From Candidatus Eiseniibacteriota bacterium (GTDB lineage: Bacteria; Eisenbacteria; RBG-16-71-46; JABDJR01; JAWXBZ01), in assembly GCA_034440375.1 (NCBI GenBank), contig JAWXBZ010000030.1, forward strand, positions 1 to 49,817: DNA of 49,817 bases, written 5' to 3'. The notes below the pieces were generated by a model. That model worked only from the letters and a program-made list of their open reading frames with translations. It made no database searches and was not told the DNA's origin. The position numbers and the translations under genes are program-made. Shown piece by piece: positions 29,801 to 41,273 of this stretch. Numbering within the stretch: position 1 is the stretch's first letter; every line of letters begins with the position of its first letter.

Positions 29801-30138
29801 ACGAATCCCTGGCGCGGGAACAGTTCCGCGAAGACCCCTACGTCGTGCCGAACCCGTACGTCAGCTCCGCTTCCTTCGAACCGGGGCGGTTTGCCGTGTC
29901 GGGCCGCGGCGATCGGCGGCTCGAGTTCCGGGGATTGCCGGCCACCTGCAGCATCCGCATCTTCACGGTGCATGGCGACCTGGTGCAGACGCTTCGCCAC
30001 GAAGGAAGCGATGACGGCTACATTCCGTGGGACCTCCGGACCAAGGACAACCTCGACGTAGCACCGGGGCTCTTTCTGTTTCATGTTGACGCCGGCCCCC
30101 TGGGCACGACCGTCGGCAAGTTTGCGATCATCAAATGA
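26851..30138 (+). CDS. Large secreted TBDR-associated protein with FN3-like domain, Dx[DN]xDG motifs and T9SS-like CTD
   Basis: GTG 26851 overlaps the TBDR stop (GTGA) behind AAGGGGGA. Signal peptide ends PAFA-Q. FN3 (YVRLSWD...FEGYRIYRS...YYYAVTAYD). C-terminus YVVPNPY...IRIFTVHGDLV...PWDL...APGLFLFHV...GKFAIIK. Confidence 0.8.
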   Translation: MTRLMGSFGSAARAAVLGAIAALTVSPAFAQVTTPVPQSQRGTSDAERSGFHDAGNIRTVFWNYGMVGDYPADPGGVDLSVFHSVEVPKGGGMNYSDGITPFVLARIIQRDGSPSYIMETGFRERQGSSPFFNRIMRFEPRPGYFEPSPSRNPGRSPAVSSDPRTWPAQWPDKLGDPDDPGWAGSWNGYFGKRIVADQESYTVMDDDYYDAWDFRPDSRDSTRHGLGLRIEVRGFQWANPQASNVIFWHYDITNEGTTDYDDNIVFGLYMDSGVGGSALSCDGIFESDDDNAFFDRTLNKDVLNLVYTWDRFGHGRDLSGNCGRTGYLGYAYMETPGNALDTVDNDLDGITNEVRDGGPGERIAGAEAIRQYVTTHYNLTNFEAEFGKLDDRPAFRAGVWYTGDEDMDWTEAVQDLGGDGLPDTDDTGEGDGIPTAGEPNFDRTDLHESDQIGLTGFKINRISAGQGNPDRTTDGVLFFTESNNWPQRLYEQFTHPDPAMRFDRPLASNYNIGFLFASGPFKLKAGKTERFSLALAYGGDLNGLRRTVKTVQQIYDANYRFAVPPPLPTATAEAGDGYVRLSWDTVAEQGADPVTGEFDFEGYRIYRSTDPEFQDPKVISTGTGAEGLGNGRPIAQFDLNDERNGFSTQTVEGVAYYLGDDTGLTHTWTDTTVTNGQAYYYAVTAYDYGSEALDFYPSENAITASRTPRGGLVLPKNVVAVRPNPRALGYVAARADTAIQIEGRGVGTVRVEVVNSDIVPADHLFKIDFNTVTPFEVRATSYALIDSTTHEVLFTDGTDFEARGIGAVGAGLLPLITTLPGVQIDPASGFRPGSPTNTRLRISYQPTLNSNLKRPGYPDDLTIEFSDTVLDTSVAGFRLPPKPARFRVIAHSPGGDRQLNFRFQDEDNSGTLNRTDERITIVTYADATPALVADTWRAELDTLGQAARGPIDPPGAGDTYDLRLLLPLGADDVFVFTTRSATINESLAREQFREDPYVVPNPYVSSASFEPGRFAVSGRGDRRLEFRGLPATCSIRIFTVHGDLVQTLRHEGSDDGYIPWDLRTKDNLDVAPGLFLFHVDAGPLGTTVGKFAIIK

Positions 30139-31154
30139 GGCGGCTGACGATGTCCCGAATGGCCCTCTCCCTGCTTTTTTTGATTCTGGCCGCCCCGGCC
30201 GGGGCTCAGAGCAAGACCGGAACGACGATAGTACAGTTCCTGAACATTGAGCCGAGCGCGAGGGTGGCCGGCATGGGGAATACCGGCGTGGCCCTGGGCA
30301 ACGATCTCCAGTCGGTGTTCTACAACCCGGCCGCACTGGGCGCGCTGGAACGAAAGAGCGCGCAGCTGAGCCACAGCGAATGGTACGGGGGGGTCAACTA
30401 CGACTATGCCGCCGCGGCGTTTCCGTTCAAGGGGCTCGGCACCTTCCTCTTAAGCGTTACGGCGTTGACGTCGGGCGATATCCTCGTCCGGACCGTCAAC
30501 GCGCCGCTCGGCACCGGCGAGCAGTACTCGGTGAACGACCTCGCGCTGGGACTCGGCTTCGGCCGCCAGATCACCAGCCGGTTCGCGGCGGGCGCCCAGT
30601 TCAACTACGCCTCGGAGACGATCTGGAATTCGTCGCTCCACATCCTGACCTTTAATGTCGGGACGGTGTACAAGTTGACTGCGGACGGGCTCAAGCTCGG
30701 CGCGTGCGTCAACAACATCGGCACCCGGACATCGCTGGATGGCCGCGACCTGGCCATCCTGTTCGATCAGGATCCGGACGCGAACGGCGACAACGGGACG
30801 CTGCCGGCCACCCAGTTCACCGACGACTTTCCGGTGCCGATCCTGTTCCGGGTCGGCGTCAGCTATCCGCGACAGCTCGGGCCGCGCAGCAAGATCGTGC
30901 TGGCCATGGATGCCTTTCACCCCAGCGACAACAGCGAGAGCGTGAGTGCGGGAGCCGAGTGGCTGTTCCGGGACACGTTTGCCCTGCGAGCCGGGTACCA
31001 GCAACTCTTTCAGACGGATTCAAACGTCGGCGTCACGCTGGGCGTGGGGCTGCGCGGTGGAATCGGATACAGCCGCTTCCACCTGGATTACGCCTGGGCC
31101 GATCATGAATTTCTAGAGGAAACGCACCGACTGACACTAGCCCTGGACTTCTGA
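30135..31154 (+). CDS. PorV/PorQ-family outer-membrane beta-barrel protein
   Basis: QFLNIEPSARVAGMG...VFYNPAAL N-terminal motif, SAGAEW...FALRAGY, LDYAW...HRLTLALDF with terminal Phe. Confidence 0.85.
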   Translation: MRRLTMSRMALSLLFLILAAPAGAQSKTGTTIVQFLNIEPSARVAGMGNTGVALGNDLQSVFYNPAALGALERKSAQLSHSEWYGGVNYDYAAAAFPFKGLGTFLLSVTALTSGDILVRTVNAPLGTGEQYSVNDLALGLGFGRQITSRFAAGAQFNYASETIWNSSLHILTFNVGTVYKLTADGLKLGACVNNIGTRTSLDGRDLAILFDQDPDANGDNGTLPATQFTDDFPVPILFRVGVSYPRQLGPRSKIVLAMDAFHPSDNSESVSAGAEWLFRDTFALRAGYQQLFQTDSNVGVTLGVGLRGGIGYSRFHLDYAWADHEFLEETHRLTLALDF

Positions 31155-31195
31155 CCTGAAGTTTTCCGGCGCGAACGCGCCACGGGAAGGACCTG

Positions 31196-32833
31196 ATGAC
31201 ACGCACCACGATTCGCTCCACGGTCTTCGGCCGTCGCCGCACCATCTGCGGCCCGCTCCTGCTCGCCCTCCTCGTAAGCGTGCTTCGCCCGGCACCGGCC
31301 TCGGCCCTGACGACCCCTGCGCTCCTGGACACGATCCAGCACACCGCATTCAACTACTTCTGGATCGAAGCCAATCCAGCCAACGGCCTGATCAAGGATC
31401 GCAGCACCACGGGTTCGCCGGCCAGCATTGCCGCCGTCGGATTCGGTCTTTCTGCCATCTGCATTGGCATTGACCATGGTTGGGTGAGCCGGGTTGACGG
31501 GCGCCAGCGCGTCCTCACGACGCTCAATACCTTCTGGACCGGACCCCAGGGAAGCGGTGTGAACGGCTTCATGGGCTACAAGGGGCTCTTCTATCACTTT
31601 CTTGACATGTCGGTCGGGGTCCGCACCTGGGACAGCGAACTGTCAAGCATTGACACCGCGTTGCTGCTCGCCGGTGCCATCGATGCCAAGCAGTATTTCA
31701 ACACCGCGGATGCCCTGGATATCCAGGTCCGGGCGCTGGTCGACTCCATCTACCGGCGGGTGGATTGGGAATTCATGCGCGCCTCCGGAGTCGGCATCCG
31801 GATGGGCTGGAAGCCGGTCACCGGCTTCAACGGCTTCGGCACCTGGACCGGCTACAACGAGGCCATGATCATGTACCTGCTCGGGCTTGGATCCCCCACC
31901 AAGCCGCCGAATCCGAACAATCCGGGATTCATGTGGAGTAGCTGGACCGCCGGCTACGACTGGCTGACCTACTACGGCTATACCTACATCCACTTTCCCC
32001 CGCTGTTCGGCCATCAGTATTCGCACTGCTGGATCGATTATCGATACATCCAGGATAATTACACGCGAAACAAGGGGATCACCTACTTCGAGAACTCGCG
32101 CCGCGCCACGTTGGCCCAATGGCAATATTGCATCGCCAATCCGGGGGGCTTTACCGGTTACGGGCCGACCCTCTGGGGGTTGACCGCCGGTGACGGCCCC
32201 AATGGCTACGCCGCGCGTGGTGCGCCACCGGCAGAGAACGACAACGGGACCATCGCGCCGACCGCCGCCATCAGCTCTCTCCCGTTCACGCCGGACGAAG
32301 TCATTCCGACGATGCACAACTTCTTCGACAACTACCCGCTGCTCTGGGGGCCGTATGGTTTCAAGGATGGCTTCAACCTGACTTCGAATCCGGATTGGTA
32401 TGGTCCTGACGTCATTGGCATTGACCAGGGTCCGATCATCATCATGATCGAGAATTACCTGAATCAGAAGGTCTGGCTCCGGTTCATGCAGAATGTGGAT
32501 GTGCAGCGCGGCCTGACCCGGGCCGGCTTCACGGCCGTGGCTGCCGTGGACGAGCTGGTCCCCCCGATTTCTCCCTTCCAGCTGTCGCAGAACAGTCCGA
32601 ATCCGTTCCGACACTCCAGCCGAATCAGCTATCGCCTGGACGAAGCCGGACTCGTGTCCCTGACGCTTTTTGACGTGATGGGACGGACCGTGAGAACGCT
32701 GGTGAATGGCCTGCAAACTTCAGGGATCCATGATGTTACGCTGGATGGGCAGGGACTACCCTCCGGAATCTACTGGTACCGGCTGAACGCCGCCGGCCGG
32801 ACGGAAACCCGGCAGGCCCTGTTGGTTCGTTGA
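31196..32833 (+). CDS. Second GH144-type beta-1,2-glucanase, with T9SS type-A-like CTD
   Basis: Same motifs as the 7533 gene (GYNEAM, PLFGHQYSH, YFENSRRATLAQ, GIDQGPI) plus LSQNSPNPF...FDVMGRTVRTLV...LPSGIYWYRL. Confidence 0.88.
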   Translation: MTRTTIRSTVFGRRRTICGPLLLALLVSVLRPAPASALTTPALLDTIQHTAFNYFWIEANPANGLIKDRSTTGSPASIAAVGFGLSAICIGIDHGWVSRVDGRQRVLTTLNTFWTGPQGSGVNGFMGYKGLFYHFLDMSVGVRTWDSELSSIDTALLLAGAIDAKQYFNTADALDIQVRALVDSIYRRVDWEFMRASGVGIRMGWKPVTGFNGFGTWTGYNEAMIMYLLGLGSPTKPPNPNNPGFMWSSWTAGYDWLTYYGYTYIHFPPLFGHQYSHCWIDYRYIQDNYTRNKGITYFENSRRATLAQWQYCIANPGGFTGYGPTLWGLTAGDGPNGYAARGAPPAENDNGTIAPTAAISSLPFTPDEVIPTMHNFFDNYPLLWGPYGFKDGFNLTSNPDWYGPDVIGIDQGPIIIMIENYLNQKVWLRFMQNVDVQRGLTRAGFTAVAAVDELVPPISPFQLSQNSPNPFRHSSRISYRLDEAGLVSLTLFDVMGRTVRTLVNGLQTSGIHDVTLDGQGLPSGIYWYRLNAAGRTETRQALLVR

Positions 32834-32928: not shown

Positions 32929-32946
32929 CATGTAAACAGTTACATG
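32929..32946. promoter_or_regulatory. Second LacI-operator-like site CATGTAAACAGTTACATG
   Basis: Core TGTAAACAGTTACA matches the 21078 operator at 12/14, with 7-bp inverted arms, directly before the AAGGAG RBS. A possible extended -10 TGCTAAGCT lies at 32869-32877. Confidence 0.65.
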
Positions 32947-32961
32947 CGAAAGGAGCACCCA

Positions 32962-33777
32962 GTGAGACATCTTGATTTCGGGCGACTTGGAGGGGTGGCG
33001 GTTCTTTTGACGGCAGCGGCTGTGATGGCGGCCCCGGTGGCACAAGCCACCCCGACGCCAACGACCGCTTCGTTGCATACCCGGATTTTCAACGACGATC
33101 CGTTTTCGACGTTGACCACTGTCAACGCCTACCCGGCATCGATCATCATCGATGACCTCAAGTTTCTCGGCGCCAGTGGCTTTGCGAATCGCCACGCATG
33201 GAGATTTTCCAACGACGGCACCAACCCGCTCGAGTTCGCCAATGGCGATCATTTCCGTTTCTGCGCCGACCTGTTGATCACGGGCGGCGGCGAGTGTGAG
33301 TCCGGTCTGCAGATTTCGCCCTGGTGGTCGCCGCTGGTGGACGGTGTCTTCAACGTCCGGACCACGGACGGAGAAATCGCCTGCTTCAACGGTCGCCTGC
33401 CCTTTTACAGCTTCACCGGAAGCCATGGCATCACCTACGCCAAGGGAAATACAATCCGCATGGAAATCATCTATGACCCCAACAGCAACACGATGGCGGA
33501 CCCGGCGACGATTGAGTACAAGGTCGTCTACCTCGCCAACTCCTATTCGAGCGGCCGCCTTCCATTCGACGAAGGAAATCCGTCCGAGGACCCGCCGCAC
33601 GGACTGTGGGGCATGTTGACCCCCGCCACCGCCGGTGGTCACCTGCAGTACTTTGTCGGCGGCTCGCCGAACGGCGGCAACGCCCGTGCCGAGTGGTCGA
33701 ACATCTGTTTCGAAGCGCTGGACACCGTGCCAGTCCAGGGTACGACCTGGAGCGCGATCAAGTCGCTGATCAACTAG
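32962..33777 (+). CDS. Secreted hypothetical protein with C-terminal TWSxIK tail
   Basis: GTG 32962 behind AAGGAG; signal peptide (…APVAQA); beta-rich body; ends VPVQGTTWSAIKSLIN. Confidence 0.8.
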   Translation: MRHLDFGRLGGVAVLLTAAAVMAAPVAQATPTPTTASLHTRIFNDDPFSTLTTVNAYPASIIIDDLKFLGASGFANRHAWRFSNDGTNPLEFANGDHFRFCADLLITGGGECESGLQISPWWSPLVDGVFNVRTTDGEIACFNGRLPFYSFTGSHGITYAKGNTIRMEIIYDPNSNTMADPATIEYKVVYLANSYSSGRLPFDEGNPSEDPPHGLWGMLTPATAGGHLQYFVGGSPNGGNARAEWSNICFEALDTVPVQGTTWSAIKSLIN

Positions 33778-33826
33778 GGTTATGACCAACCGCCGGCCTT
33801 CACGGGCCTGGCGTACAGGTAAGCGA

Positions 33827-33858
33827 GGGGGGGGGCTTCGGCCCCCCTCTTTCTCTTT
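33827..33858 (+). terminator. Intrinsic terminator
   Basis: GGGGGGC-TTCG-GCCCCCC stem with C(UUCG)G loop followed by TCTTTCTCTTT, between convergent genes. Confidence 0.8.
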
Positions 33859-33885
33859 GCTCCCGCGTAGATCGGTTGGGCGGGA

Positions 33886-34710
33886 TCAAGCCTTGACCGG
33901 CTCGAGACCTGCGATCAGCGCCGACAGGAAGGCCAGCAGCCGGGTCTCCATTCCCTTCGCCGTCTCCAGCACCTCGTCGTGGTTCAGCGGCGTCAGTGAG
34001 ATCCCGGCGGCTGGATTGACGATGGCCGAGATGCCGAGCACCTGCATGCCGGCCGCCCGGGCCGCGACCGATTCCAGAACGATTGACATGGAGACGGCAT
34101 CCGCGCCCAGCGCGCGAAGCATGCGGACTTCGCTCGGCGTTTCGTAATTCGGCCCCACCACGCCACCGAAGACGCCGCGATGAATCCGGTGCTCTCCCAT
34201 CGCGTGGGCGATTTCAAGGGCGAGCTTCAGGAGCCGCGGCGAGTAGATCGATCCCGACCCTCGCCAGGTGTCCGTCGGCAGCGCCCCGTTGCCGAGGCCA
34301 GGCAGCCGGCGCATCTGAAGGTTGATCTGGTCCTCGATCAGCATGATGTCGCCGGCCTTGAAGTGGCGGTGGATGCCGCCCGACGCCGTGGTCAGGATGA
34401 GCGTTGACACCCCGACAGCGGCCAGGACGCGAACGCCGAAAGTCACGGCTCCGGCATCAATCCCCTCGTACAGGTGCAGTCGGCCCTGCATGGCCACCAC
34501 ACGGCGTGTGCCCATTGTGCCGAGCACCAACCGCCCCTTGTGACCGATGACCGTAGGTAGGGGAAAGTCGGGGATGTCGGCGTAATCGACGGCCTGCGCC
34601 CCCACGAGCGTGTCAGCAAAAGCGCCGAGTCCGGAGCCCAGGACAACCGCCACCTCCGGTACGAATGGAACGCGGCGCTGCAGTTCGGCGACGGCGCGCT
34701 CAATCGTCAT
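33886..34710 (-). CDS. punA: Purine-nucleoside phosphorylase (trimeric NP-I type)
   Basis: VVLGSGLG, GHKGRLVLG, MQGRLHLYEG, GPNYETPSE, GADAVSMS, LNHDEV. Confidence 0.92.
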   Translation of the reverse strand: MTIERAVAELQRRVPFVPEVAVVLGSGLGAFADTLVGAQAVDYADIPDFPLPTVIGHKGRLVLGTMGTRRVVAMQGRLHLYEGIDAGAVTFGVRVLAAVGVSTLILTTASGGIHRHFKAGDIMLIEDQINLQMRRLPGLGNGALPTDTWRGSGSIYSPRLLKLALEIAHAMGEHRIHRGVFGGVVGPNYETPSEVRMLRALGADAVSMSIVLESVAARAAGMQVLGISAIVNPAAGISLTPLNHDEVLETAKGMETRLLAFLSALIAGLEPVKA

Positions 34711-35378
34711 CGGCCGGTCGGGAACAGATCAGCCGGCCTCTGGCCCCGGGCCGATGACGAGGCCAGCGCGTGCACCTTGGTTCGCAGGATGTCGACGCCG
34801 ACATGGTTCTCCACACCCTCGGGAATGATGATATCGGCGTAACGTTTCGAGGGCTCGACAAACTGCTGGTGCATCGGCCGGACGGACGCCTCGTACTGGG
34901 TCAGGACCGATTCCACCGATCGTCCCCGCTCGGTCACGTCACGGCGGAGCCGGCGAATCAGGCGCACGTCGGGATCGGTGTCGATGAAGACCTTGATGCT
35001 CATGAGCGCCCGGAGGCGCGGGTCATCCAGAACGAGAATCCCTTCCAGGACCAGGACCGAATGGCCGCCGACCCGTTCGGTCCGCGCCGAACGGGTGTGG
35101 GCCGTGTAGTCGTAGACCGGCTTCTCGACCCATCCCCCCTGCCGGAGTATGGTGAGATGATCGAACAGGAGTGCGCCGTCGAAGGAGGAGGGGTGGTCGA
35201 AGTTCTGCTTCTTGCGCTCGTCCAGTGGTAGATCGCTGAGATCGCAATAGTATGAGTCCTGGTCGATGACCTGAACCTCCTCCTGACCCAGCTCCTCGAC
35301 GATGGCATGCGCGACGCGGGTCTTGCCGGAGGCCGAGCCTCCGGCGATGCCAATGATCCAGCAGTCTGGCGGGTTCAT
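34707..35378 (-). CDS. udk: Uridine kinase
   Basis: IGIAGGSASGKT P-loop, QDSYY, NFDHP, RLIRRLRRDVTERGRS, FVEPSKRYADIIIP. Confidence 0.96.
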   Translation of the reverse strand: MNPPDCWIIGIAGGSASGKTRVAHAIVEELGQEEVQVIDQDSYYCDLSDLPLDERKKQNFDHPSSFDGALLFDHLTILRQGGWVEKPVYDYTAHTRSARTERVGGHSVLVLEGILVLDDPRLRALMSIKVFIDTDPDVRLIRRLRRDVTERGRSVESVLTQYEASVRPMHQQFVEPSKRYADIIIPEGVENHVGVDILRTKVHALASSSARGQRPADLFPTGR

Positions 35379-36775
35379 GGCGTCATCTTAGCAGGCCGTG
35401 TCGTTGATTCGAACCGGCCGGCCCGTGCCAGGACGGCATGCAGTGCCTCGCGTCCGCGTGCCATGATTTCCTTGTCTTCAAAGCCGGGAATTTGGCCCCG
35501 ATCGACGACGGCCCGCCCTTCGATGTACACCGACTCGATGTTCGTTCGATCGGCCCCGAAGACGATGCGCGTGTATGGATCGACGGCGTCGGCACACAGC
35601 GAGTGGACCCGCTCCAGGTCGAAGACGACGAAGTCGGCCCGCTTCCCCACCTCGAGGCTGCCGATCCGGTCCTCGGCATCGATGGCCAGCGCGCCCTCAC
35701 GGGTGGCCAGGGACAGTGCGTCCCGGGCGGTGAATCGATCCGGACCGTGACGCCACTTCTGAAGCAACGCCGCCAGTCGCATTTCGCCGAGCGGGTCGAG
35801 AAAGTTGTTGCAGGGCGAACCGTCGCAGCCGATGCCGACCCGGACCCCATGGCGCTTCAGTCGCTCGAGGTCGGCCACGCCGGAACCGAGTTTCAGGTTG
35901 CTGGCCGGGCAGTGGATGACGGCGGCCCCGGCTCCGCCCAGCCGCTCAGCCGTCGGATCATCGACCCAGACGCCGTGAGCCACCTTGAGCGGCACCGTCA
36001 GCGCGCCGACGTCGCGAAGCGTGTCGAGTTCGCTTCGATGCTCAACGGCCCGCACGGCCTCCTGCTCTTCACGCGTTTCGAACGCATGGGTATGGAGCGG
36101 CCAGTTCCCCCCCCTGGCCTGCGCCACTGCCCCCTCCCAGAGCGCCGGCGTACAGGAGAAGACGAATCGGGGACAGACCGCATAGCCGATGCGCCCGTTG
36201 TCCACGCCATCCCAGTGTCGGGCCAGTTCATGGCTTTCGGCCAGGATGCGATCCGGTTCGCCCAGCAGCGCCGGTGGCACGCCGTCCCCCCGGTCCATGA
36301 GCAGCTTGCCGGTCCTGGCTCGCACGCCCAGGTCGATCAGGCCCCGGAAGAGGCCGTTCATGCCATGGACGAGGCCGATGTCGAGCATGGATGTTGTGCC
36401 GGCCCGCATCGCCTCCGCTCCACCGACGACGGCCGACCAGTAGGCGGATTCGTCATCGTGGGCCGCCTCCAGCGGCCAGATAACGCCGGAGAGCCAGTCC
36501 AGCAACCGCCGGTCTTCACCGAGGCCACGAAAGAGCGTCTGGCCCAGGTGAACGTGCCCCTGGATGAAACCGGGGGTCATCCATCGGCCGGTCAGATCGA
36601 CGATGGGCGTCCCTTCGGGGGCCGAGACCTTCGGGCCAAACTGCTCGATCCGACCGTCGACGACAAACATCTCGCCTTCCACGATTCGATCGGATGGATC
36701 CATGGTGATCCAGCGGCCGCCCTTGAATACCGTGCCCCCTGGATGACTTCGGGGCCAGTGAATGCCCTCGGTCAT
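35375..36775 (-). CDS. Amidohydrolase-family nucleoside deaminase (5'-deoxyadenosine/MTA/SAH deaminase-like)
   Basis: PGFIQGHVHLGQTLFRG, LHTHAFET, AHGVW, HCPASNLKLGSG, GCDG, GSLEVGKRAD; salvage-operon context. Confidence 0.8.
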   Translation of the reverse strand: MTEGIHWPRSHPGGTVFKGGRWITMDPSDRIVEGEMFVVDGRIEQFGPKVSAPEGTPIVDLTGRWMTPGFIQGHVHLGQTLFRGLGEDRRLLDWLSGVIWPLEAAHDDESAYWSAVVGGAEAMRAGTTSMLDIGLVHGMNGLFRGLIDLGVRARTGKLLMDRGDGVPPALLGEPDRILAESHELARHWDGVDNGRIGYAVCPRFVFSCTPALWEGAVAQARGGNWPLHTHAFETREEQEAVRAVEHRSELDTLRDVGALTVPLKVAHGVWVDDPTAERLGGAGAAVIHCPASNLKLGSGVADLERLKRHGVRVGIGCDGSPCNNFLDPLGEMRLAALLQKWRHGPDRFTARDALSLATREGALAIDAEDRIGSLEVGKRADFVVFDLERVHSLCADAVDPYTRIVFGADRTNIESVYIEGRAVVDRGQIPGFEDKEIMARGREALHAVLARAGRFESTTRPAKMTP

Positions 36776-37320
36776 GCCTGGGGCAACTTGAAGACTTCCG
36801 GCTTCAGGATGCCGACATACGGCAAATTGCGGTAACGCTGCTGGTAGTCGAGTCCGTAGCCGACCAGGAATTCATTGGGCACTTCAAACCCGGTAAAGCG
36901 GATCGGCACCGGCGCCGTCCGGGCGGCCACCTTGTCGAGGAGCGCGCAGACCGCAAGGGAACGCGGGTGGCGCGTCGTCAGGTTTTCAAGCAGGTAGTTG
37001 ATGGTGAGCCCGGTGTCGATGATGTCCTCAACCAGCAGGACATCCCGCCCCTCAATGCTGACTGACACGTCCTTCAACATGCGAACGACACCCGTCGATT
37101 GTGTTCCTCCCTCGTAGGAGGAGACGGCGATGAAATCGAGGATGACATGCCGGTCGAGGGCCCGGGCCAGATCGGCAAGAAATAGCAGGCTGCCGGAGAG
37201 CACACCCAGAAGTACCAGATCCCCCTCGGGATAGGCTTCGTTGATCTCCCGGGCCATGGCCTGAATGCGATTTTGAATGTCCTTGCTGGAGTAGAGAATT
37301 CGGGCCATGTCGCCGTGCAT
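36772..37320 (-). CDS. hpt: Hypoxanthine phosphoribosyltransferase
   Basis: VLLVEDIIDTGLT PRPP loop, FLVGYGLDYQQRYRNLPY; AAGGAG RBS. Confidence 0.97.
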   Translation of the reverse strand: MHGDMARILYSSKDIQNRIQAMAREINEAYPEGDLVLLGVLSGSLLFLADLARALDRHVILDFIAVSSYEGGTQSTGVVRMLKDVSVSIEGRDVLLVEDIIDTGLTINYLLENLTTRHPRSLAVCALLDKVAARTAPVPIRFTGFEVPNEFLVGYGLDYQQRYRNLPYVGILKPEVFKLPQA

Positions 37321-37355
37321 CGAGTCTCCTTCGGTCGGCAGTGGAACGGGGGCAG

Positions 37356-37385
37356 ATCATGCCCCAGATCCCAGAGGGTTGGCAA
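37356..37385 (-). promoter_or_regulatory. Possible sigma70 promoter of the hpt operon
   Basis: TTGCCA-18 nt-CATGAT on the minus strand, within the relatively AT-rich divergent intergenic region. Confidence 0.35.
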
Positions 37386-37614
37386 TCGGGCAGGAGATGG
37401 AATCCACATGAGGACAGGCGACATAACGTGATTATATACAATGTCTTACGACACGATAATTCGGGACTCGCTGAAAATCGAATAGTCATCTCTTTGCTTG
37501 GAGCGACCTCACTAACCATGGTAGCATCATACAGTTATCGAATCAGAATCTCCTCGCCCCCAGATTGGGCTGGATCTGACAACACGCTCCACCAACTCGA
37601 AGGAGGATTCTCAG

Positions 37615-38319
37615 ATGAAGTTTTTGGCTAAGGCTCTTTCCGTTGCCGCGCTTGCCGTGCTCGTCAGTACCAGCGCGTCGGCCCAGATTCTGTTGAATGA
37701 GATTCGGACCGACCAGACCGGGTCGGACACCGACGAGTACGTTGAACTTGCCGGTCCGGCCGGGGCGTCTCTTGCAGGCTACTCGATCGTCGTGATCGGC
37801 GACGGGACCGGCGGTTGCGGTGTTGTTGAGGCCGCCATCAGTCTTGCCGCCTTCAGCATCCAGGCTGATGGCTATTTCGCGCTTCGCTACAGCGCGGGCG
37901 TAGCGCTCTTGACTGGTTACGACGCTACCTTGACCGGCTCTTTCGAAAACAGTGACAATCTCACATTCCTCCTGGTGACCGGCAACACCGCGGCCGTCGC
38001 AAATGACCTTGACACCAACAATGACGGCATCCTTGATACAACGCCTTGGGCGACGATCGTCGATCAGGTTGGTCTGTCAGAAGGTACGGTCGTCAATTGC
38101 ACAACTGACGAATACCTGTACACCACCACGGTCGTGGGGCCGGATGGAACCTTTGCTCCGGGACATGTCTACCGTTGCGGTGCCACCTGGCTCATCGGAC
38201 CGTTCGGGGGTGTGCTTCCCACCGGCGGTGTTGACACGGTGGGTGCGGCGAACACCAGCTGCCCGGTGCCGGTTGCCCCGTCGACCTGGAGCAATATCAA
38301 GGCACGGATCAGCAACTAG
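37615..38319 (+). CDS. Secreted lamin-tail-like domain protein with TWSxIK tail; paralogue of the N-terminal domain of 1..1824
   Basis: AAGGAGG RBS, signal peptide, LLNEIRTDQTGSDTDEYVEL, SIQADGYFALR, GSFENSDNLTFLLVTGNT; ends CPVPVAPSTWSNIKARISN. Confidence 0.88.
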   Translation: MKFLAKALSVAALAVLVSTSASAQILLNEIRTDQTGSDTDEYVELAGPAGASLAGYSIVVIGDGTGGCGVVEAAISLAAFSIQADGYFALRYSAGVALLTGYDATLTGSFENSDNLTFLLVTGNTAAVANDLDTNNDGILDTTPWATIVDQVGLSEGTVVNCTTDEYLYTTTVVGPDGTFAPGHVYRCGATWLIGPFGGVLPTGGVDTVGAANTSCPVPVAPSTWSNIKARISN

Positions 38320-38356
38320 AGGTTCGGCTGCCTGGAGTTCTGACAGCAGGAAAATC

Positions 38357-38388
38357 AGACCGGGAGCCCACGCGGCTCCCGGTCTTTT
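38357..38388 (+). terminator. Intrinsic terminator
   Basis: AGACCGGGAGCC-CACGC-GGCTCCCGGTCT followed by TTT. Confidence 0.85.
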
Positions 38389-38420
38389 CGTATGGCCGAG
38401 GGGCGGAGGTCTTACCTCCG

Positions 38421-39233
38421 ATGGTGAAAATGCATCGCAGGCATCTGACACATAACCGATACTTCCACTTCCCGATTTGCCTTGCGGCCATGGCAGCCCT
38501 GATGGGCCCGGTCACCGCCGCAGCCAGCGCCGTCTACCAACCCCTCCCCTTCAACCAGAACTGGAACAACACGACCCTCCTGACCGCCAATGACAACTGG
38601 AGCGGCGTTCCGGGGATTGTTGGCTACCTGGGTGAGGATCCGATTACGAGCGAGGCGGGACGGCTGCCGCGAACGATCACCGCCGATTCGTCGAGCGCGG
38701 TCGACCTGATCGCCAATCAGACCAATCCGAATACGCTCGTGGCGGGCGGCGTGGCGGAATTTCACCTGGTGGATCCCGTGGTGGCGCTTCAAGGCTCTGC
38801 CACGGCCGACTACCCGCACCTGGTGATCCATCTCAATACGATCGGGGTGTTCGGGCCCCTGATCTTTCAAGCCCGGCTGCGGGACATTGACGGATCGCTG
38901 GACAATGCGACCCAGCCGATCCAGGTGCAGTACCGCACCCAGCCGTCAGGCGAATGGACAAACGCCGCCGGCGGCGATTTTCTCGACGCGACGACCGGTC
39001 CGGGGATGTCCACGCTTGAAACGGCGGTTTACGTTGTCCTTCCTGGCGATGTCGGGAATCGGCCACAACTGCAAATCCGGATACTGACGGCCAACGCGGC
39101 GGGGGGCCCCTTGGGCAATGACGAGTGGGTGGGGATCGACGATATTTCCGTGTCGCCCGCCACTTCCGGCGTGCCGGCCCCGGGTTCACTCCAGCCGACC
39201 ACCTGGAGCCGGATCAAGTCGCTCGGACGCTAG
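38421..39233 (+). CDS. Secreted hypothetical protein with TWSxIK tail
   Basis: Signal-peptide-like N-terminus; beta-sandwich-like body (LPFNQNW...NDEWVGIDDISV); ends SLQPTTWSRIKSLGR. Confidence 0.8.
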   Translation: MVKMHRRHLTHNRYFHFPICLAAMAALMGPVTAAASAVYQPLPFNQNWNNTTLLTANDNWSGVPGIVGYLGEDPITSEAGRLPRTITADSSSAVDLIANQTNPNTLVAGGVAEFHLVDPVVALQGSATADYPHLVIHLNTIGVFGPLIFQARLRDIDGSLDNATQPIQVQYRTQPSGEWTNAAGGDFLDATTGPGMSTLETAVYVVLPGDVGNRPQLQIRILTANAAGGPLGNDEWVGIDDISVSPATSGVPAPGSLQPTTWSRIKSLGR

Positions 39234-39493
39234 CCGCCTGAATCGACGATGCCGACGATCAGGGTGCGGATCGGCGCGTCGGGTGCTTCCAGGATCTGCC
39301 GGGCGCTGCTCCCCTCGTCCAGGATGAGAACGGTCTGACCGGGCGCCGCCTGCACGGTATCGACGGCGATGACCGTGCCGCCCAACGGCGCGCCGTCCAG
39401 GCCAATCCGCTGGGCCAGCAGGAGCCTTCGACCGTCGAGTGCGGGATGCTGGATGGTCGAGACGACGGTTCCAATGATCCGGGCCAGCATCAT
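39230..39493 (-). CDS. BMC vertex protein (BMC-P, EutN/CcmL family)
   Basis: MLARIIGTVVST, IAVDTVQAAPGQTVL, EGSSARQ, IVGIVD. Confidence 0.93.
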   Translation of the reverse strand: MMLARIIGTVVSTIQHPALDGRRLLLAQRIGLDGAPLGGTVIAVDTVQAAPGQTVLILDEGSSARQILEAPDAPIRTLIVGIVDSGG

Positions 39494-39786
39494 GACGGGG
39501 CGACTCCCGGCACCGGCGGCTCCACTGCAAGCTGATCAATGAGGCCGACGATGGCATGGTCCACCGGCACAAAGCTCGGATCGAGCGCCATGGCCGCCTC
39601 ACGCCCGCCTTCGTAGTGGACCAGGTCGCCGGGTCCGGCGGTTCGGGTGGCATCGGCCGCCACGATGGGCGTCCCGAGAGGGACACACCGTTCATCCAGC
39701 GGCTGCACCAAGAGGAAGCGAACGCCGGCAAGCCCTGGCGCCCGAATCGTGGCCACAACACGCCCGATGACCTGACCGATCAGCAT
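39490..39786 (-). CDS. BMC vertex protein (BMC-P, EutN/CcmL family)
   Basis: MLIGQVIGRVVAT, AGPGDLV, GGREAA, PVDHAIVGLID. Confidence 0.93.
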   Translation of the reverse strand: MLIGQVIGRVVATIRAPGLAGVRFLLVQPLDERCVPLGTPIVAADATRTAGPGDLVHYEGGREAAMALDPSFVPVDHAIVGLIDQLAVEPPVPGVAPS

Positions 39787-41273
39787 CAGACGATGCGGAA
39801 GTAGTCGACCAGCGTGCAGCGACGGAGCCGGCTGAAGGCGATCGGGCCTGTCATCCCCTCCCCCGTCGGGCTGGCGATGGTGAAGGAGGTGTACCCCTCG
39901 CCTCCGAAACCGAGACCGGCGAGGTTGGGCGCGTTCTTGATGAATATCGAGGTGTTGATTTCGCGGGCCATGCGCGAGAGGCGGTCGATGGACAGCGAAT
40001 GCATCGACGCCGTGTGACCGAAGCGATGCTCGGCTTTGACGGCCATATCGATGGCGTGGTCGGCGTCGGGCACGCGGACAACCGGCAGGACCGGCATCAT
40101 CTGTTCGGTCCAGACCAGCGGATGGTCGGCCTCGACTTCGAGGAACAGGAGGCGCGGATCATCCGAGGCTGTAACGCCCATGGCGTTCAGGATGAACCCG
40201 GCATTCTTGCCGATGAATTCCGGGTTGATTACCCCCGGCTTTCCCGGACCACGGGTCTCCTTGAAGATGGCCTTCATCAACCGCTCCTGCTGCCAGGATT
40301 TGAGTTCGTAACCGCCGGCGGCCGTCATCGCTTTCTTCAGGCGATCCGCCACCGAGGCTACGACGAAGACTTCCTTTTCATCGGTGCAGATGACGTTATT
40401 GTCGAACGAGGCGCCGCGCACGATGTCCGCGCCCGCTTTCTCGATTCGGGCCGTTTCATCCACCACTACCGGCGGGTTGCCCGGGCCGGCACAGATGGCC
40501 CGTTTGCCGCTCTGCATGGCGGCCGAAACGACCCCCGCGCCGCCGGTGACGACAAGAATGCGGATTCCCTTGTGCTTCATCAGTTCCTGGGCGCTTCCTT
40601 GCGTCGGGTTGGCCACGGCAGTGACGACATTTTTGGGTCCCCCCGCCGCCAGGATGGCCTCGTTGATCAGGTGAATATTCGTGAGTGAGACATTCCTGGC
40701 GTTGGGATGCACGTTGAATACGACCGAATTTCCCGCCGCCAGCATGCCGATGGAATTGCAGATGATGGTCGATGTTGGATTGGTGGTCGGGGTGATGGCT
40801 CCAATGGTGCCGAAGGGGGCCCTTTCTTCCAGGAGCAGGCCGTGATCGCCCGATTCAGCCCGGGGCACCAGGACTTCGGTTCCGGGGGTCTTGTTGGTGA
40901 CGAGCAGGTTCTTCTGAATCTTGTCTTCGAAACGGCCGAGACCAGTCTCCTGGTGGGCCATCCACGCCAGCATCTCCGCGTTGTCGCGCATCGACTTTCG
41001 GATATGGGAGAGAATGGCATTGCGCTTGTCCATGCTGAGAGCCACGAACTCGAGCTGAGCCTGATTGGCCGCCGTCACGGCTTCGTCCACGGAGTCAAAG
41101 GCGCCGAGCCTGGCCCCGGGGGCGACGGCCCCCATCGGCTCCGATGGTCCCGTCGAGTAACCGCCACTTTCGCCGGAGGAGGCGCCGGACACCATGCCAC
41201 CGGATTCCGCGAGCTGTTTCAGCACGCGGCGCGCCAGTTCCTGTACGTCCTGGTCAGTTATCGGATGCATCAT
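39786..41273 (-). CDS. CoA-acylating aldehyde dehydrogenase (EutE/PduP-like) with N-terminal encapsulation peptide
   Basis: ITDQDVQELARRVLKQL helix and low-complexity linker; GAITPTTNP, TGGAGVV, AGPGNPPVVVDETA, SFDNNVICTDEKE. Confidence 0.92.
   Translation of the reverse strand: MMHPITDQDVQELARRVLKQLAESGGMVSGASSGESGGYSTGPSEPMGAVAPGARLGAFDSVDEAVTAANQAQLEFVALSMDKRNAILSHIRKSMRDNAEMLAWMAHQETGLGRFEDKIQKNLLVTNKTPGTEVLVPRAESGDHGLLLEERAPFGTIGAITPTTNPTSTIICNSIGMLAAGNSVVFNVHPNARNVSLTNIHLINEAILAAGGPKNVVTAVANPTQGSAQELMKHKGIRILVVTGGAGVVSAAMQSGKRAICAGPGNPPVVVDETARIEKAGADIVRGASFDNNVICTDEKEVFVVASVADRLKKAMTAAGGYELKSWQQERLMKAIFKETRGPGKPGVINPEFIGKNAGFILNAMGVTASDDPRLLFLEVEADHPLVWTEQMMPVLPVVRVPDADHAIDMAVKAEHRFGHTASMHSLSIDRLSRMAREINTSIFIKNAPNLAGLGFGGEGYTSFTIASPTGEGMTGPIAFSRLRRCTLVDYFRIV

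What the first reader, a model, noticed from the sequence alone, without database searches (positions are those of the whole stretch)
33721..39233. Shared C-terminal 'TWSxIK' tail on three unrelated secreted proteins: candidate uncharacterised sorting/export signal
Seen: three signal-peptide proteins with no visible similarity in their bodies end in VPVQGT-TWSAIK-SLIN*, VPVAPS-TWSNIK-ARISN* and VPAPGSLQPT-TWSRIK-SLGR*. Each has a Val/Pro linker, the TWSxIK core, then 4-5 residues. DNA is ACCTGGAGCnnnATCAAG at 33745, 38284 and 39201. The tail has no TM helix, so it is unlike LPXTG or PEP-CTERM, and it is far shorter than a T9SS CTD. Inference: a short amphipathic C-terminal targeting signal with its own receptor or processing machinery. 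I recall similar TWxxIK-type tails in proteins of some candidate phyla but cannot verify that, or whether the motif has been characterised.
Basis: partly seen in the sequence, partly recalled or inferred. Interest (0 to 1): 0.85.

Follow-up and report, generated by a model that had tools for sequence, protein, structure and literature searches.

The report
Short C-terminal address tag, Eisenbacteria dialect
About seventy unrelated exported proteins of this uncultured soil bacterium end in the same short peptide, which sits where related proteins carry known surface-sorting signals, so it is probably an undescribed address label whose reader is still unknown.

Summary
The three window proteins end in T-W-S-x-I-K plus 4-5 residues, and their bodies are unrelated. 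The tail is genome-wide: 73 six-frame hits to a tail profile, 71 of them within 8 residues of a stop codon. The 55 tail proteins in a crude gene set fall into 38 body clusters. Signal peptides are enriched: 42 of 55 against 616 of 2743 other genes. No curated sorting model matches the tail, and it has no membrane helix.

In orthologues of window ORF2, the tail, PEP-CTERM or a T9SS-type domain follows the same junction. AlphaFold gives a flexible linker and a short helix starting at the Trp in two families.

The profile hits 186 of 201 Eisenbacteria genomes. The TWS form is a dialect of this genome's family. Other genomes use TWGxIK, usually ending Y/F-R. This parallel shift across unrelated genes argues for one shared reader.

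PorU and other C25 peptidases are neither supported nor excluded.

This scan had already found the sister TWGxIKxLYR tail on other DNA. Four paper searches found no description.

The parts
32944..33777 (+). ORF1, 277-aa exported protein of unknown family carrying the tail
   Evidence: only a sub-threshold DUF4377 hit; nearest Atlas clusters are Eiseniibacteriota hypotheticals, score 0.99. Signal peptide about 32944-33048, judged by eye and heuristic.
33727..33774 (+). ORF1 tail: linker VPVQG, then TTWSAIKSLIN
   Evidence: Tail-profile hit of 26.6 bits ending at the stop.
37615..38319 (+). ORF2, 234-aa exported lamin-tail-domain-like protein carrying the tail
   Evidence: Pfam LTD 19.6 bits, below cut-off. 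The AF2 model has mean pLDDT 87.5. The top 11 Foldseek PDB hits are all lamin Ig-fold, E 3.9e-3 and weaker. A homologue is named 'Lamin tail domain-containing protein' by a source. Signal peptide about 37615-37686.
38260..38316 (+). ORF2 tail: CPVPVAPS linker, then TWSNIKARISN
   Evidence: Profile hit of 33.4 bits. AF2 predicts a helix at 225-233 that starts at W225, pLDDT about 75.
38421..39233 (+). ORF3, 270-aa exported protein with no Pfam family, carrying the tail
   Evidence: In the Atlas structure search its body recurs inside larger proteins with FlgD_ig / Por_Secre_tail domains, and in the feature search a cluster carries PEP-CTERM on 15% of members; leads only. Signal peptide about 38421-38531.
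39171..39230 (+). ORF3 tail: VPAPGSLQP linker, then TTWSRIKSLGR
   Evidence: Profile hit of 23.4 bits.
30135..31154 (+). Context: PorV/PorQ-family outer-membrane gene, two genes upstream of ORF1
   Evidence: NF033709 183.5 bits, cut-off 90. It is one of six PorV-like loci in the genome. No link to the tail is shown.
31196..32833 (+). Context: glycoamylase with a T9SS type A C-terminal domain, directly upstream of ORF1
   Evidence: PF10091 263.7 bits. TIGR04183 32.3 bits, cut-off 23. It shows that the organism also uses the classical T9SS tag.

Best explanation
The TWSxIK tail is a portable C-terminal address tag. It has a Pro/Val-rich flexible linker (often just after a Cys), a Thr/Ser cap, and a roughly 9-residue element, W-[S/G]-x-[I/V]-K-[S/A]-[L/R]-x, followed by 2-5 variable residues. 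It is added to Sec-exported, mostly small single-domain binding-type proteins. After export the tag is most likely read by one shared, still unidentified envelope factor. That factor would keep or attach the proteins at the cell envelope or surface, the same end result as the PEP-CTERM and T9SS tags that replace it in orthologues. The TWS form is the dialect of this genome's family within Eisenbacteria; the widespread form is TWGx[IV]Kx[L]-[YF]-R. Shown: tag status, C-terminal restriction, enrichment on exported proteins, family diversity, tag swapping and the dialect shift. Inferred: a trans-acting reader, the destination, and the helical shape.
For: (1) Of 73 profile hits at 15 bits or more, 71 end within 8 residues of a stop. 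(2) A strict signal-peptide test passes 42 of 55 tail genes against 616 of 2743 other genes, odds ratio 11, p=8e-17. (3) The 55 tail proteins fall into 38 body clusters. Only 14 of 63 have any Pfam hit: LTD, Beta_helix, ASH/Ig, Golvesin_C, DUF4394, NHL, PPC, Kre9_KNH, CHRD, PrcB_C. (4) Tags swap at one junction. Among the 120 listed ORF2 homologues, the conserved DTPGxxN is followed by the TW tail in 62. It is followed by a PEP-CTERM-like end in at least 15; 7 carry PF07589 and one is named PEP-CTERM, Planctomycetes. One Krumholzibacteria homologue (312 aa) ends in a FlgD_ig/T9SS-type domain. Among the 120 listed DUF4394 homologues, 26 carry the tail, all of them short forms of 286-313 aa. (5) No G000 protein has both a tail and a T9SS CTD. 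Fifteen of 55 tail bodies have a CTD-bearing paralogue. Median length is 245 aa for tail proteins against 751 aa for CTD proteins. (6) AF2 in two unrelated families puts a coil linker before a helix that starts exactly at the Trp: 293-301 at pLDDT 46-61, and 225-233 at pLDDT about 75. (7) Dialects: the T-W-S(AGY)-x-[IVM]-K DNA pattern occurs 31 and 34 times in G000 and its family mate G001. It occurs 0-6 times in each of the 199 other Eisenbacteria searched; controls give 0-2. The T-W-G pattern occurs 14 and 34 times in those two genomes and 1-88 times elsewhere. Ser at +1 is AGC or AGT in 31 of 41 cases, one transition from Gly GGY, while AGC is only 23% of Ser codons genome-wide. G goes with Y/F at +7 in 160 of 184 tails, S in 39 of 83. 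In the ORF2, DUF4394 and CNPC families, tails with Ser at +1 predominate among the closest relatives of G000, though some occur further out. Parallel change across unrelated genes is what a shared reader predicts. (8) W and K are invariant in 63 tails and across 27 DUF4394 orthologues of 57-95% identity.
Against: No reader was found. No gene family that looks like a reader recurs next to tail genes. Family f9 keeps PorU, C25 paralogues and often an exosortase, yet has only 0-4 tails, so no clean presence/absence contrast exists. The dialect shift could also follow a change in a lipid or glycan target instead of a protein reader. It rests on related genomes that are not independent. The AF2 helix has low to moderate confidence, and strand periodicity fits the sequence better than helical periodicity. 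Two homologous lipoproteins in the global library carry 4-5 tandem copies, so a free C-terminus at a fixed distance is not strictly required. Localisation and processing are untested, and the organism is uncultured.
Confidence: 0.6

Rival explanations
1. Cleavable sorting signal handled by a PorU-like C25 (gingipain-family) transpeptidase. The enzyme would cut after the invariant Lys, release the 3-6 variable end residues, and link the protein to a surface glycan, as PorU does with T9SS cargo.
For: Conservation is strongest up to the Lys and falls off over the next residues, with a short variable remainder; 57 of 63 tails have 3-7 residues after K. Every one of 201 Eisenbacteria has C25 peptidases, and G000 has PorU plus 4 paralogues. 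One paralogue lies next to a tail gene on contig C11. Across 31 relatives, tail counts track C25/PorU-like match counts after genome size is removed: partial r=0.58, against 0.18 for T9SS-CTD candidates. Lys-specific gingipains are known; this is recalled, not from a call.
Against: f9 genomes have 2-5 C25 genes, like f10 genomes with 1-25 tails, yet have only 0-4 tails. The correlation is across kin and is driven by lineages with large secretomes. In G000 only one tail gene (contig C11) was seen to lie next to a C25 gene, and C25 genes were not among the families recurring near tail genes. A surface enzyme would need the cargo to cross the outer membrane first. Tandem internal copies are odd for a cut site.
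Confidence: 0.12
2. Minimal type IX secretion signal. The tail would stand in for the 70-100-residue CTD and take small proteins through SprA/PorV.
For: G000 has PorU (520 bits), an adjacent PorV-like gene, SprA (535 bits summed) and 131 CTD-type C-termini. PorU is found in 31 of 31 relatives. In one ORF2 homologue a FlgD_ig/T9SS-type CTD takes the tail's place. ORF1 lies downstream of a PorV/PorQ-family gene and a T9SS cargo gene.
Against: The tail matches none of the CTD models type A, B or C (NF033708) at E up to 10. CTD classes are taken from passages of PMC12398890. Known CTDs are folded Ig-like domains. f9 has T9SS parts but almost no tails. Co-occurrence with T9SS is confounded by phylogeny, because every genome searched has it.
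Confidence: 0.12
3. Anchor without a reader. The short cationic element would itself bind an anionic membrane surface, LPS or a surface polymer and hold the protein there non-covalently.
For: Net charge from the Thr to the end averages +1.9. AF2 predicts a short terminal helix not packed on the body. Tandem copies in two lipoproteins would add avidity, as in repeat-type wall-binding modules. No enzyme partner was found. C-terminal amphipathic anchors are known for PBP5/6 and MinD; this is recalled, not from a call.
Against: Amphipathicity is weak: helical moment 0.37 against 0.33 shuffled. Invariant W and K, the near-invariant Thr and small residues at +1 and +5 are tighter than lipid-binding helices usually need. 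Nine residues is short for a stable anchor. Near-exclusive C-terminal placement is not required for a binding module.
Confidence: 0.15
4. Not an address at all: a C-terminal degradation or quality-control tag for periplasmic proteases, or an inert remnant of PEP-CTERM signals that lost their membrane helix.
For: The motif PV[EA]P[ST]TW resembles the start of PEP-CTERM (VPEP[ST][ST]L) at the same junction in orthologues.
Against: An inert remnant would not keep W and K invariant across about 70 genes and hundreds of genomes. It would not shift in parallel by lineage either. A degron on 2% of the proteome, swapping with surface-sorting tags, has no precedent that I know of.
Confidence: 0.05

Closest known systems
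TWGx[IV]KxLYR tail noted earlier by this scan (e1-1150619, e1-5109266, e1-5228770, e1-3105087, e1-5222476); unpublished AI notes
   Same: Same architecture and core: linker, [ST]-T-W, small residue, x, [IVL], K, short end. It is also found on unrelated exported proteins and also swaps with known tags. Here 96 of the 150 best global hits of the TWS-trained profile are TWG tails.
   Different: In this genome and G001, Ser replaces Gly at +1 and the Y/F-R end is mostly lost. New in this report: the dialect shift, the tests of exosortase, sortase and C25, the tail-poor family f9, the tandem copies and the AF2 shape.
PEP-CTERM / exosortase (TIGR02595, PF07589; EpsH PF09721)
   Same: It occupies the same junction in ORF2 orthologues and begins with a similar Pro-Glu-Pro-Ser/Thr stretch. 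Both sit on exported proteins of many families.
   Different: The tail has no membrane helix (0 of 63) and no Arg cluster. There is no model match. Exosortase presence does not track the tails: G001 (69 tails) and G014 (96 tails) have none, and families f16 (0 of 9) and f13 (0 of 3) have none, while near-tailless f9 genomes have it.
T9SS C-terminal domains, types A, B, C (TIGR04183/PF18962, TIGR04131, NF033708), with PorU/PorV
   Same: A C-terminal tag on Sec-exported proteins in the same organisms. It is interchangeable with the tail in homologous bodies.
   Different: CTDs are folded domains of 70-100 residues; the tail's conserved part is about 20 residues. No model matches. The two tags mark different size classes, median 751 against 245 aa.
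IPTL-CTERM / exosortase H
   Same: A Pro-Thr...Trp-Gly signature. This genome holds one canonical pair on contig C112.
   Different: IPTL-CTERM has a membrane helix and an Arg cluster and sits beside its XrtH-like enzyme. The TW tails have neither, and G001 has no exosortase match.
C-terminal amphipathic-helix membrane anchors (E. coli PBP5/PBP6, MinD membrane-targeting sequence); recalled, not from a call
   Same: A short terminal helix after a flexible linker, with positive charge.
   Different: Those anchors are longer or clearly amphipathic, and are not a shared, sequence-specific tag on dozens of unrelated proteins. Here amphipathicity is marginal.

Membership tests
PEP-CTERM / exosortase | Match to the PEP-CTERM model (TIGR02595 / PF07589) | tested here: not met
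   Zero of 63 tails match any sorting model in NCBIfam at E up to 10. There is no TIGR02595 match in the genome, but that search rang in no control genome, so on its own it is weak.
PEP-CTERM / exosortase | Hydrophobic transmembrane helix followed by a basic cluster | tested here: not met
   Zero of 63 tails have a 15-residue hydropathy window of 1.6 or more (maximum 1.40). Only 3-13 residues follow the Lys.
PEP-CTERM / exosortase | Co-occurrence with an exosortase (PF09721) | tested here: not met
   PF09721 is found in 132 of 201 genomes. It is absent from tail-rich G001 and G014, f16 (0 of 9) and f13 (0 of 3), and present in near-tailless f9 genomes. G000's only copy is XrtH-like and sits beside an IPTL-CTERM protein.
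PEP-CTERM / exosortase | Pro-Glu-Pro motif at the start of the signal | tested here: inconclusive
   The tail has PV[EA]P[ST]T: P in 31 of 55 at -6, E in 19 of 55 at -4, P in 29 of 55 at -3. This is similar to, but not the same as, VPEP.
LPXTG / sortase | LPXTG motif, membrane helix and a sortase gene | tested here: not met
   No such motif, no helix, and no PF04203 match in G000, while the control rang in 3 Gram-positive genomes.
T9SS CTD (types A, B, C) | Folded domain of 70-100 residues matching TIGR04183, TIGR04131 or NF033708 | tested here: not met
   No NCBIfam match for the three whole proteins at E up to 1 or for the 63 tails at E up to 10. AF2 shows coil plus one short helix.
T9SS CTD (types A, B, C) | Occurs only with T9SS machinery | tested here: inconclusive
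   T9SS parts are present in G000, and PorU in 31 of 31 relatives. No T9SS-free genome was available to break the link.
Outer-membrane protein beta-signal | Aromatic last residue | tested here: not met
   The last residue is aromatic in 5 of 63 tails. The commonest are R, P, N and Q.
C-terminal amphipathic-helix anchor | Clearly amphipathic helix | tested here: inconclusive
   Mean helical moment 0.37 against 0.33 (sd 0.02) for shuffled tails. Strand moment 0.41 against 0.32. AF2 predicts a helix at low to moderate confidence.
TWGxIKxLYR tail (earlier scan notes) | Core [ST]-W-[small]-x-[IVL]-K near the C-terminus of unrelated exported proteins | tested here: met
   S and G forms occur in the same orthologous families and in the same genomes G000 and G001.

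The most novel reading that the evidence does not exclude
A new protein-sorting or surface-docking system. Its tag has no membrane helix and is about 20 residues long, marking roughly 2% of the proteome. It would be read by its own, still unknown envelope machine, which co-evolves with the tags in lineage-specific dialects (TWS in this family, TWG..YR elsewhere, an FG variant in some ORF2 homologues). It would operate alongside T9SS and exosortase systems across Eisenbacteria and at least Krumholzibacteriota.
Probability: 0.5. Interest if true: 0.85.

Novelty: new variant of a known kind. Interest (0 to 1): 0.72.

Why it matters
C-terminal sorting tags (LPXTG, PEP-CTERM, T9SS CTDs) each led to a dedicated machine and explained how whole sets of surface proteins are placed. 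This tag marks about 70 proteins per genome in a widespread soil phylum. It is absent from Pfam and NCBIfam, so these proteins are annotated as unrelated hypotheticals. A model for it would immediately improve annotation of thousands of proteins. It would also define the exported 'tail-ome' of these uncultured bacteria.

Tried and rejected
Its distribution does not track the tails, and G000's single copy is XrtH-like and sits beside its own IPTL-CTERM protein.

Sortase: none in G000.

PorU: present in all 31 relatives, including tail-poor ones, so it does not discriminate. The correlation is only a lead.

Gene neighbourhoods of the 55 tail genes (4 genes each side): the recurrent families are Ser/Thr kinases (11 of 42 in the genome, uncorrected P=0.001), sigma-54 activators, ABC-type proteins and histidine kinases. 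None looks like a reader. The contig C11 stretch between a tail cluster and a C25 gene holds phosphodiesterases, TPR proteins, a PPIase and a UbiA-family gene; nothing there is conclusive.

One complex job, canonical PorV with the tail alignment: the verdict was 'no answer', so it counts neither way.

HPRT as a bait for taxonomy and synteny gave only distant phyla at 57% identity or less. The taxon comes instead from source names of homologues (Eisenbacteria / Eiseniibacteriota) and from earlier notes.

Hydrophobic-moment analysis did not settle helix against strand. A translation of L153 was made in the wrong frame and was not pursued. Searches (one sequence only; too many words) were slips; they were corrected.

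Supplements of papers were not consulted.

Full report
**Observation.** They end in VPVQGTTWSAIKSLIN, CPVPVAPSTWSNIKARISN and VPAPGSLQPTTWSRIKSLGR. The 18-base pattern occurs three times, and none of 100 shuffles gave a match. Only the conserved codons are shared; the flanking DNA differs. Each protein has a signal-peptide-like N-terminus. With the tails cut off, pairwise BLASTP finds nothing: best E 0.05 to 2.2, and the E 0.05 and E 2.2 alignments cover only the signal peptides.

ORF2 is a lamin-tail-domain-like protein. Pfam LTD scores 19.6 bits, below its cut-off. The AF2 model has mean pLDDT 87.5. The top 11 Foldseek hits are lamin Ig-folds, at E 3.9e-3 and weaker. ORF1 and ORF3 have no family; Atlas neighbours are leads only.

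**The tail is genome-wide.** The window is contig C30 of a 3.96-Mb, 264-contig genome that is 93.7% complete. In a six-frame scan, W[SGAT]x[IVLM]K lies 4 or 5 residues before a stop in 24+24 frames. Every bin from 11 to 59 residues holds 3 or fewer. A 20-column profile built from the 55 tails in my crude gene set finds 73 frames at 15 bits or more. Seventy-one of them end within 8 residues of the stop. The two exceptions (C129:11053-12159 and C89:2146-2478) look like a read-through or a frameshift.

The consensus is C-x-[PA]-[VT]-[PA]-V-[EA]-P-[TS]-T-W-S-[RG]-[IV]-K-[SA]-[LR]-x-x. W and K are invariant in the 63-tail alignment A1. That is partly by construction, because the seed set was chosen with a W...K pattern. 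No tail has a membrane helix, and 5 of 63 end in an aromatic residue.

**It marks exported proteins of many families.** My gene caller is crude: 3080 genes covering 90% of the genome. It missed ORF2. A strict signal-peptide heuristic passes:
- 42 of 55 tail genes;
- 77 of 131 genes with a T9SS-type C-terminus;
- 616 of 2743 other genes (odds ratio 11, p=8e-17).

A laxer test gave 48 of 55 against 1183 of 2874. The 55 bodies fall into 38 BLASTP clusters. The largest has 13 members and is an unnamed family with a conserved N-P-C motif near the end ('CNPC'); the next has 4 NHL propellers. Of 63 tail proteins, 14 have a Pfam hit at E of 0.001 or better: LTD, two Beta_helix, ASH/Ig, Golvesin_C, DUF4394, four NHL, PPC, Kre9_KNH, CHRD and PrcB_C. 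The other 49 have none.

**It is not a catalogued signal.** NCBIfam gives nothing for the three proteins at E up to 1. It gives nothing relevant for the 63 tails at E up to 10. That library holds PEP-CTERM, IPTL-CTERM and the T9SS type A, B and C models. It did recognise the IPTL-CTERM protein elsewhere in this genome.

Four full-text searches found no description of the tail. In one search I saw only the listing and the start of the abstracts of the two myxosortase preprints. I read passages of one T9SS review, PMC12398890, for the CTD classes. No supplements were consulted.

**It sits where known tags sit.** Among the 120 listed homologues of ORF2 (228 in all at E of 0.001 or better), the body ends in a conserved DTPGxxN. 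What follows is:
- the TW tail in 62;
- a Pro-Glu-Pro motif, hydrophobic helix and Arg cluster in at least 15 by my pattern. Several more are visible among the 41 rows classed 'other'. Seven carry PF07589, and one is named a PEP-CTERM protein of Planctomycetes;
- in one 312-residue Krumholzibacteria homologue, an ending in a FlgD_ig/T9SS-type domain.

About eight homologues have Phe in place of Trp (SFGxLKxxYR). Among the 120 listed DUF4394 homologues, 26 carry the tail, all of them short forms of 286-313 residues. The roughly 500-residue forms stop at the end of the domain. Fifty-seven of 59 CNPC homologues carry it.

Within G000, a jackhmmer search seeded with the window's glycoamylase CTD finds 131 T9SS-type C-termini. 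None also has a TW tail. Fifteen of 55 tail bodies have a CTD-bearing paralogue. Median lengths are 245 and 751 residues.

**Shape.** AF2 with family alignments models the bodies well. In both families tested it gives a coil linker and then a helix that begins exactly at the Trp. In the DUF4394 protein the helix is 293-301, at pLDDT 46-61. In ORF2 it is 225-233, at pLDDT about 75. The Thr before the Trp would then cap the helix; that is my inference. The small residues at +1 and +5 would lie on one face; that is also inference. The hydrophobic moment is only marginally above shuffled for a helix (0.37 against 0.33). It is further above shuffled for a strand (0.41 against 0.32). Mean net charge is +1.9, and a Cys lies 5-14 residues upstream of the Trp in 39 of 63 tails. 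The shape is therefore not settled.

**Distribution.** Source names of homologues (Candidatus Eisenbacteria / Eiseniibacteriota) and earlier notes on this genome place it in Eisenbacteria. The A1 profile hits 30 of 31 relatives, with 0-96 matches each. It hits 186 of 201 genomes of the phylum at E of 0.001 or better, although only 41 candidates per genome were scored there.

Family f9 is tail-poor: 28 of 41 genomes have a match, mostly 1-4, and five checked in depth have only marginal hits. Five genomes from other phyla gave no hit at E of 0.001 or better. In a library of 1.84 billion representatives, 256 proteins reach E of 0.001. Of the best 150, 144 have the motif within 12 residues of the end, with Gly at +1 in 96 and Ser in 47. 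The DNA pattern for T-W-G-x-[IVM]-K occurs 1-37 times per genome in 61 Krumholzibacteriota genomes, against 0-3 for the reversed control. That count does not show position in the protein.

**Dialects.** The DNA pattern for T-W-S(AGY)-x-[IVM]-K occurs 31 times in G000 and 34 times in G001, the only other genome of its family. It occurs 0-6 times in each of the other 199 genomes; controls give 0-2. The Gly pattern occurs 14 and 34 times in those two genomes and 1-88 times in the other relatives.

Ser at +1 is encoded by AGC or AGT in 31 of 41 cases, one transition from Gly GGC/GGT. AGC is 23% of Ser codons genome-wide. Gly goes with Tyr/Phe at +7 in 160 of 184 distinct tails, Ser in 39 of 83. 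Those sequences are related, so the p-value overstates the case. In the ORF2, DUF4394 and CNPC families, tails with Ser at +1 predominate among the closest relatives of G000, though some also occur among more distant homologues.

So dozens of unrelated genes changed the same tag positions in one lineage. This is my main argument that all the tails answer to one shared reader or one shared target.

- *Sortase:* none.
- *Exosortase:* one short XrtH-like copy on C112, beside a protein with a canonical IPTL-CTERM domain (TIGR04174, 37 bits). Across the phylum exosortase is found in 132 of 201 genomes. It is missing from tail-rich G001, G014, f16 (0 of 9) and f13 (0 of 3), and present in near-tailless f9 genomes. 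It is rejected.
- *T9SS:* G000 has PorU (520 bits), an adjacent PorV-like gene, five more PorV-like loci including window 30135-31154, and SprA. PorU is found in all 31 relatives, so it cannot discriminate.
- *C25 peptidases:* found in 201 of 201 genomes. f9 has 2-5, as do most f10 genomes that have more tails. Tail counts track C25/PorU-like match counts after genome size is removed (partial r=0.58, n=31 related genomes). This is a lead only.
- *Neighbourhoods:* no reader-like family emerged. Ser/Thr kinase genes are modestly enriched near tail genes: 11 of 42, uncorrected P=0.001.
- *Complex job:* PorV with the tail returned 'no answer' and counts neither way.
- *Tandem copies:* two homologous lipoproteins from the global library carry 4-5 tandem copies of the motif. 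This fits a docking module better than a single cut site.

**Verdict.** That it is an address or retention tag is well supported by position, cargo type and tag swapping. That it has one shared reader is inferred from the parallel dialect shift.

This report adds the dialect evidence, the exclusions and the comparative handles.

Noticed in passing
G000 contig C112, about 33.9-35.2 kb (L149:1468-2644, minus strand): A 197-aa exported protein with a canonical IPTL-CTERM domain (TIGR04174, 37 bits, cut-off 20.5). It lies directly upstream of, and overlaps, a short exosortase H-like gene (TIGR04177, 73.6 bits, below its cut-off of 86; PF09721, 48 bits). This is the genome's only exosortase-family gene.
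   Followed up: partly
window 26332-32833 (+): A 1268-aa protein with a weak match to the C-terminal end of the PorZ model (NF052228, E 0.0011, residues 1161-1268; it looks CTD-like by eye), a PorV/PorQ-family gene (30135-31154, start overlapping the previous stop) and a glycoamylase with a T9SS type A CTD form a co-directional run ending just before tail gene ORF1.
   Followed up: partly
window 39230-41273 (-): Two CcmL/EutN-type microcompartment vertex genes and an acylating aldehyde dehydrogenase (PRK15398, 635.8 bits) start right after ORF3. This looks like a bacterial microcompartment locus unrelated to the tails.
   Followed up: no
window 33886-37320 (-): Four co-directional minus-strand genes lie between ORF1 and ORF2. 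By eye they look like nucleoside and purine salvage genes: a phosphorylase, a uridine-kinase-like gene, an amidohydrolase and HPRT. Only the HPRT was used, as a search bait.
   Followed up: no
G000, genome-wide: Ser/Thr protein kinase genes (42 in the crude gene set) lie within 4 genes of tail genes in 11 cases; about 4 would be expected (uncorrected P=0.001). Examples are contig C112 (kinase, tail gene, kinase) and contig C49 (two tail genes, then a kinase).
   Followed up: partly
proteins P0121 and P0129 (global library): Two homologous lipoproteins carry 4-5 tandem copies of the tail motif, separated by 6-9-residue linkers. The G000 homologue (C24:19644-20936) has one copy.
   Followed up: partly
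ORF2 homologues P0328, P0340, P0351, P0355, P0357, P0367, P0369, P0370: A variant of the tag with Phe in place of the otherwise invariant Trp (S/T-F-G-x-[LI]-K-x-x-[YF]-R). P0317 has W-Q in place of W-G/S.
   Followed up: no
Eisenbacteria family f9 (for example G016, G023, G029, G040, G048, G085, G086): This is a clade of small genomes (2-3.5 Mb, most 90% or more complete) with 0-4 tails each. It keeps PorU, 2-5 C25 peptidases and often a canonical exosortase.
   Followed up: partly
G000 C129:11053-12159, C89:2146-2478, C209:9476-9628: Three aberrant tails. One is followed by 41 more residues, one is broken after W-S-R-I, and one has Arg in place of Trp in a 50-aa frame. They may be pseudogenes, assembly errors or decaying tags.
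   Followed up: no
G024 (family f10): The tail profile finds 21 matches, but the T-W-G and T-W-S DNA patterns find one each. This lineage therefore probably uses yet another dialect, for example Ser at -1 or Leu at +3.
   Followed up: no
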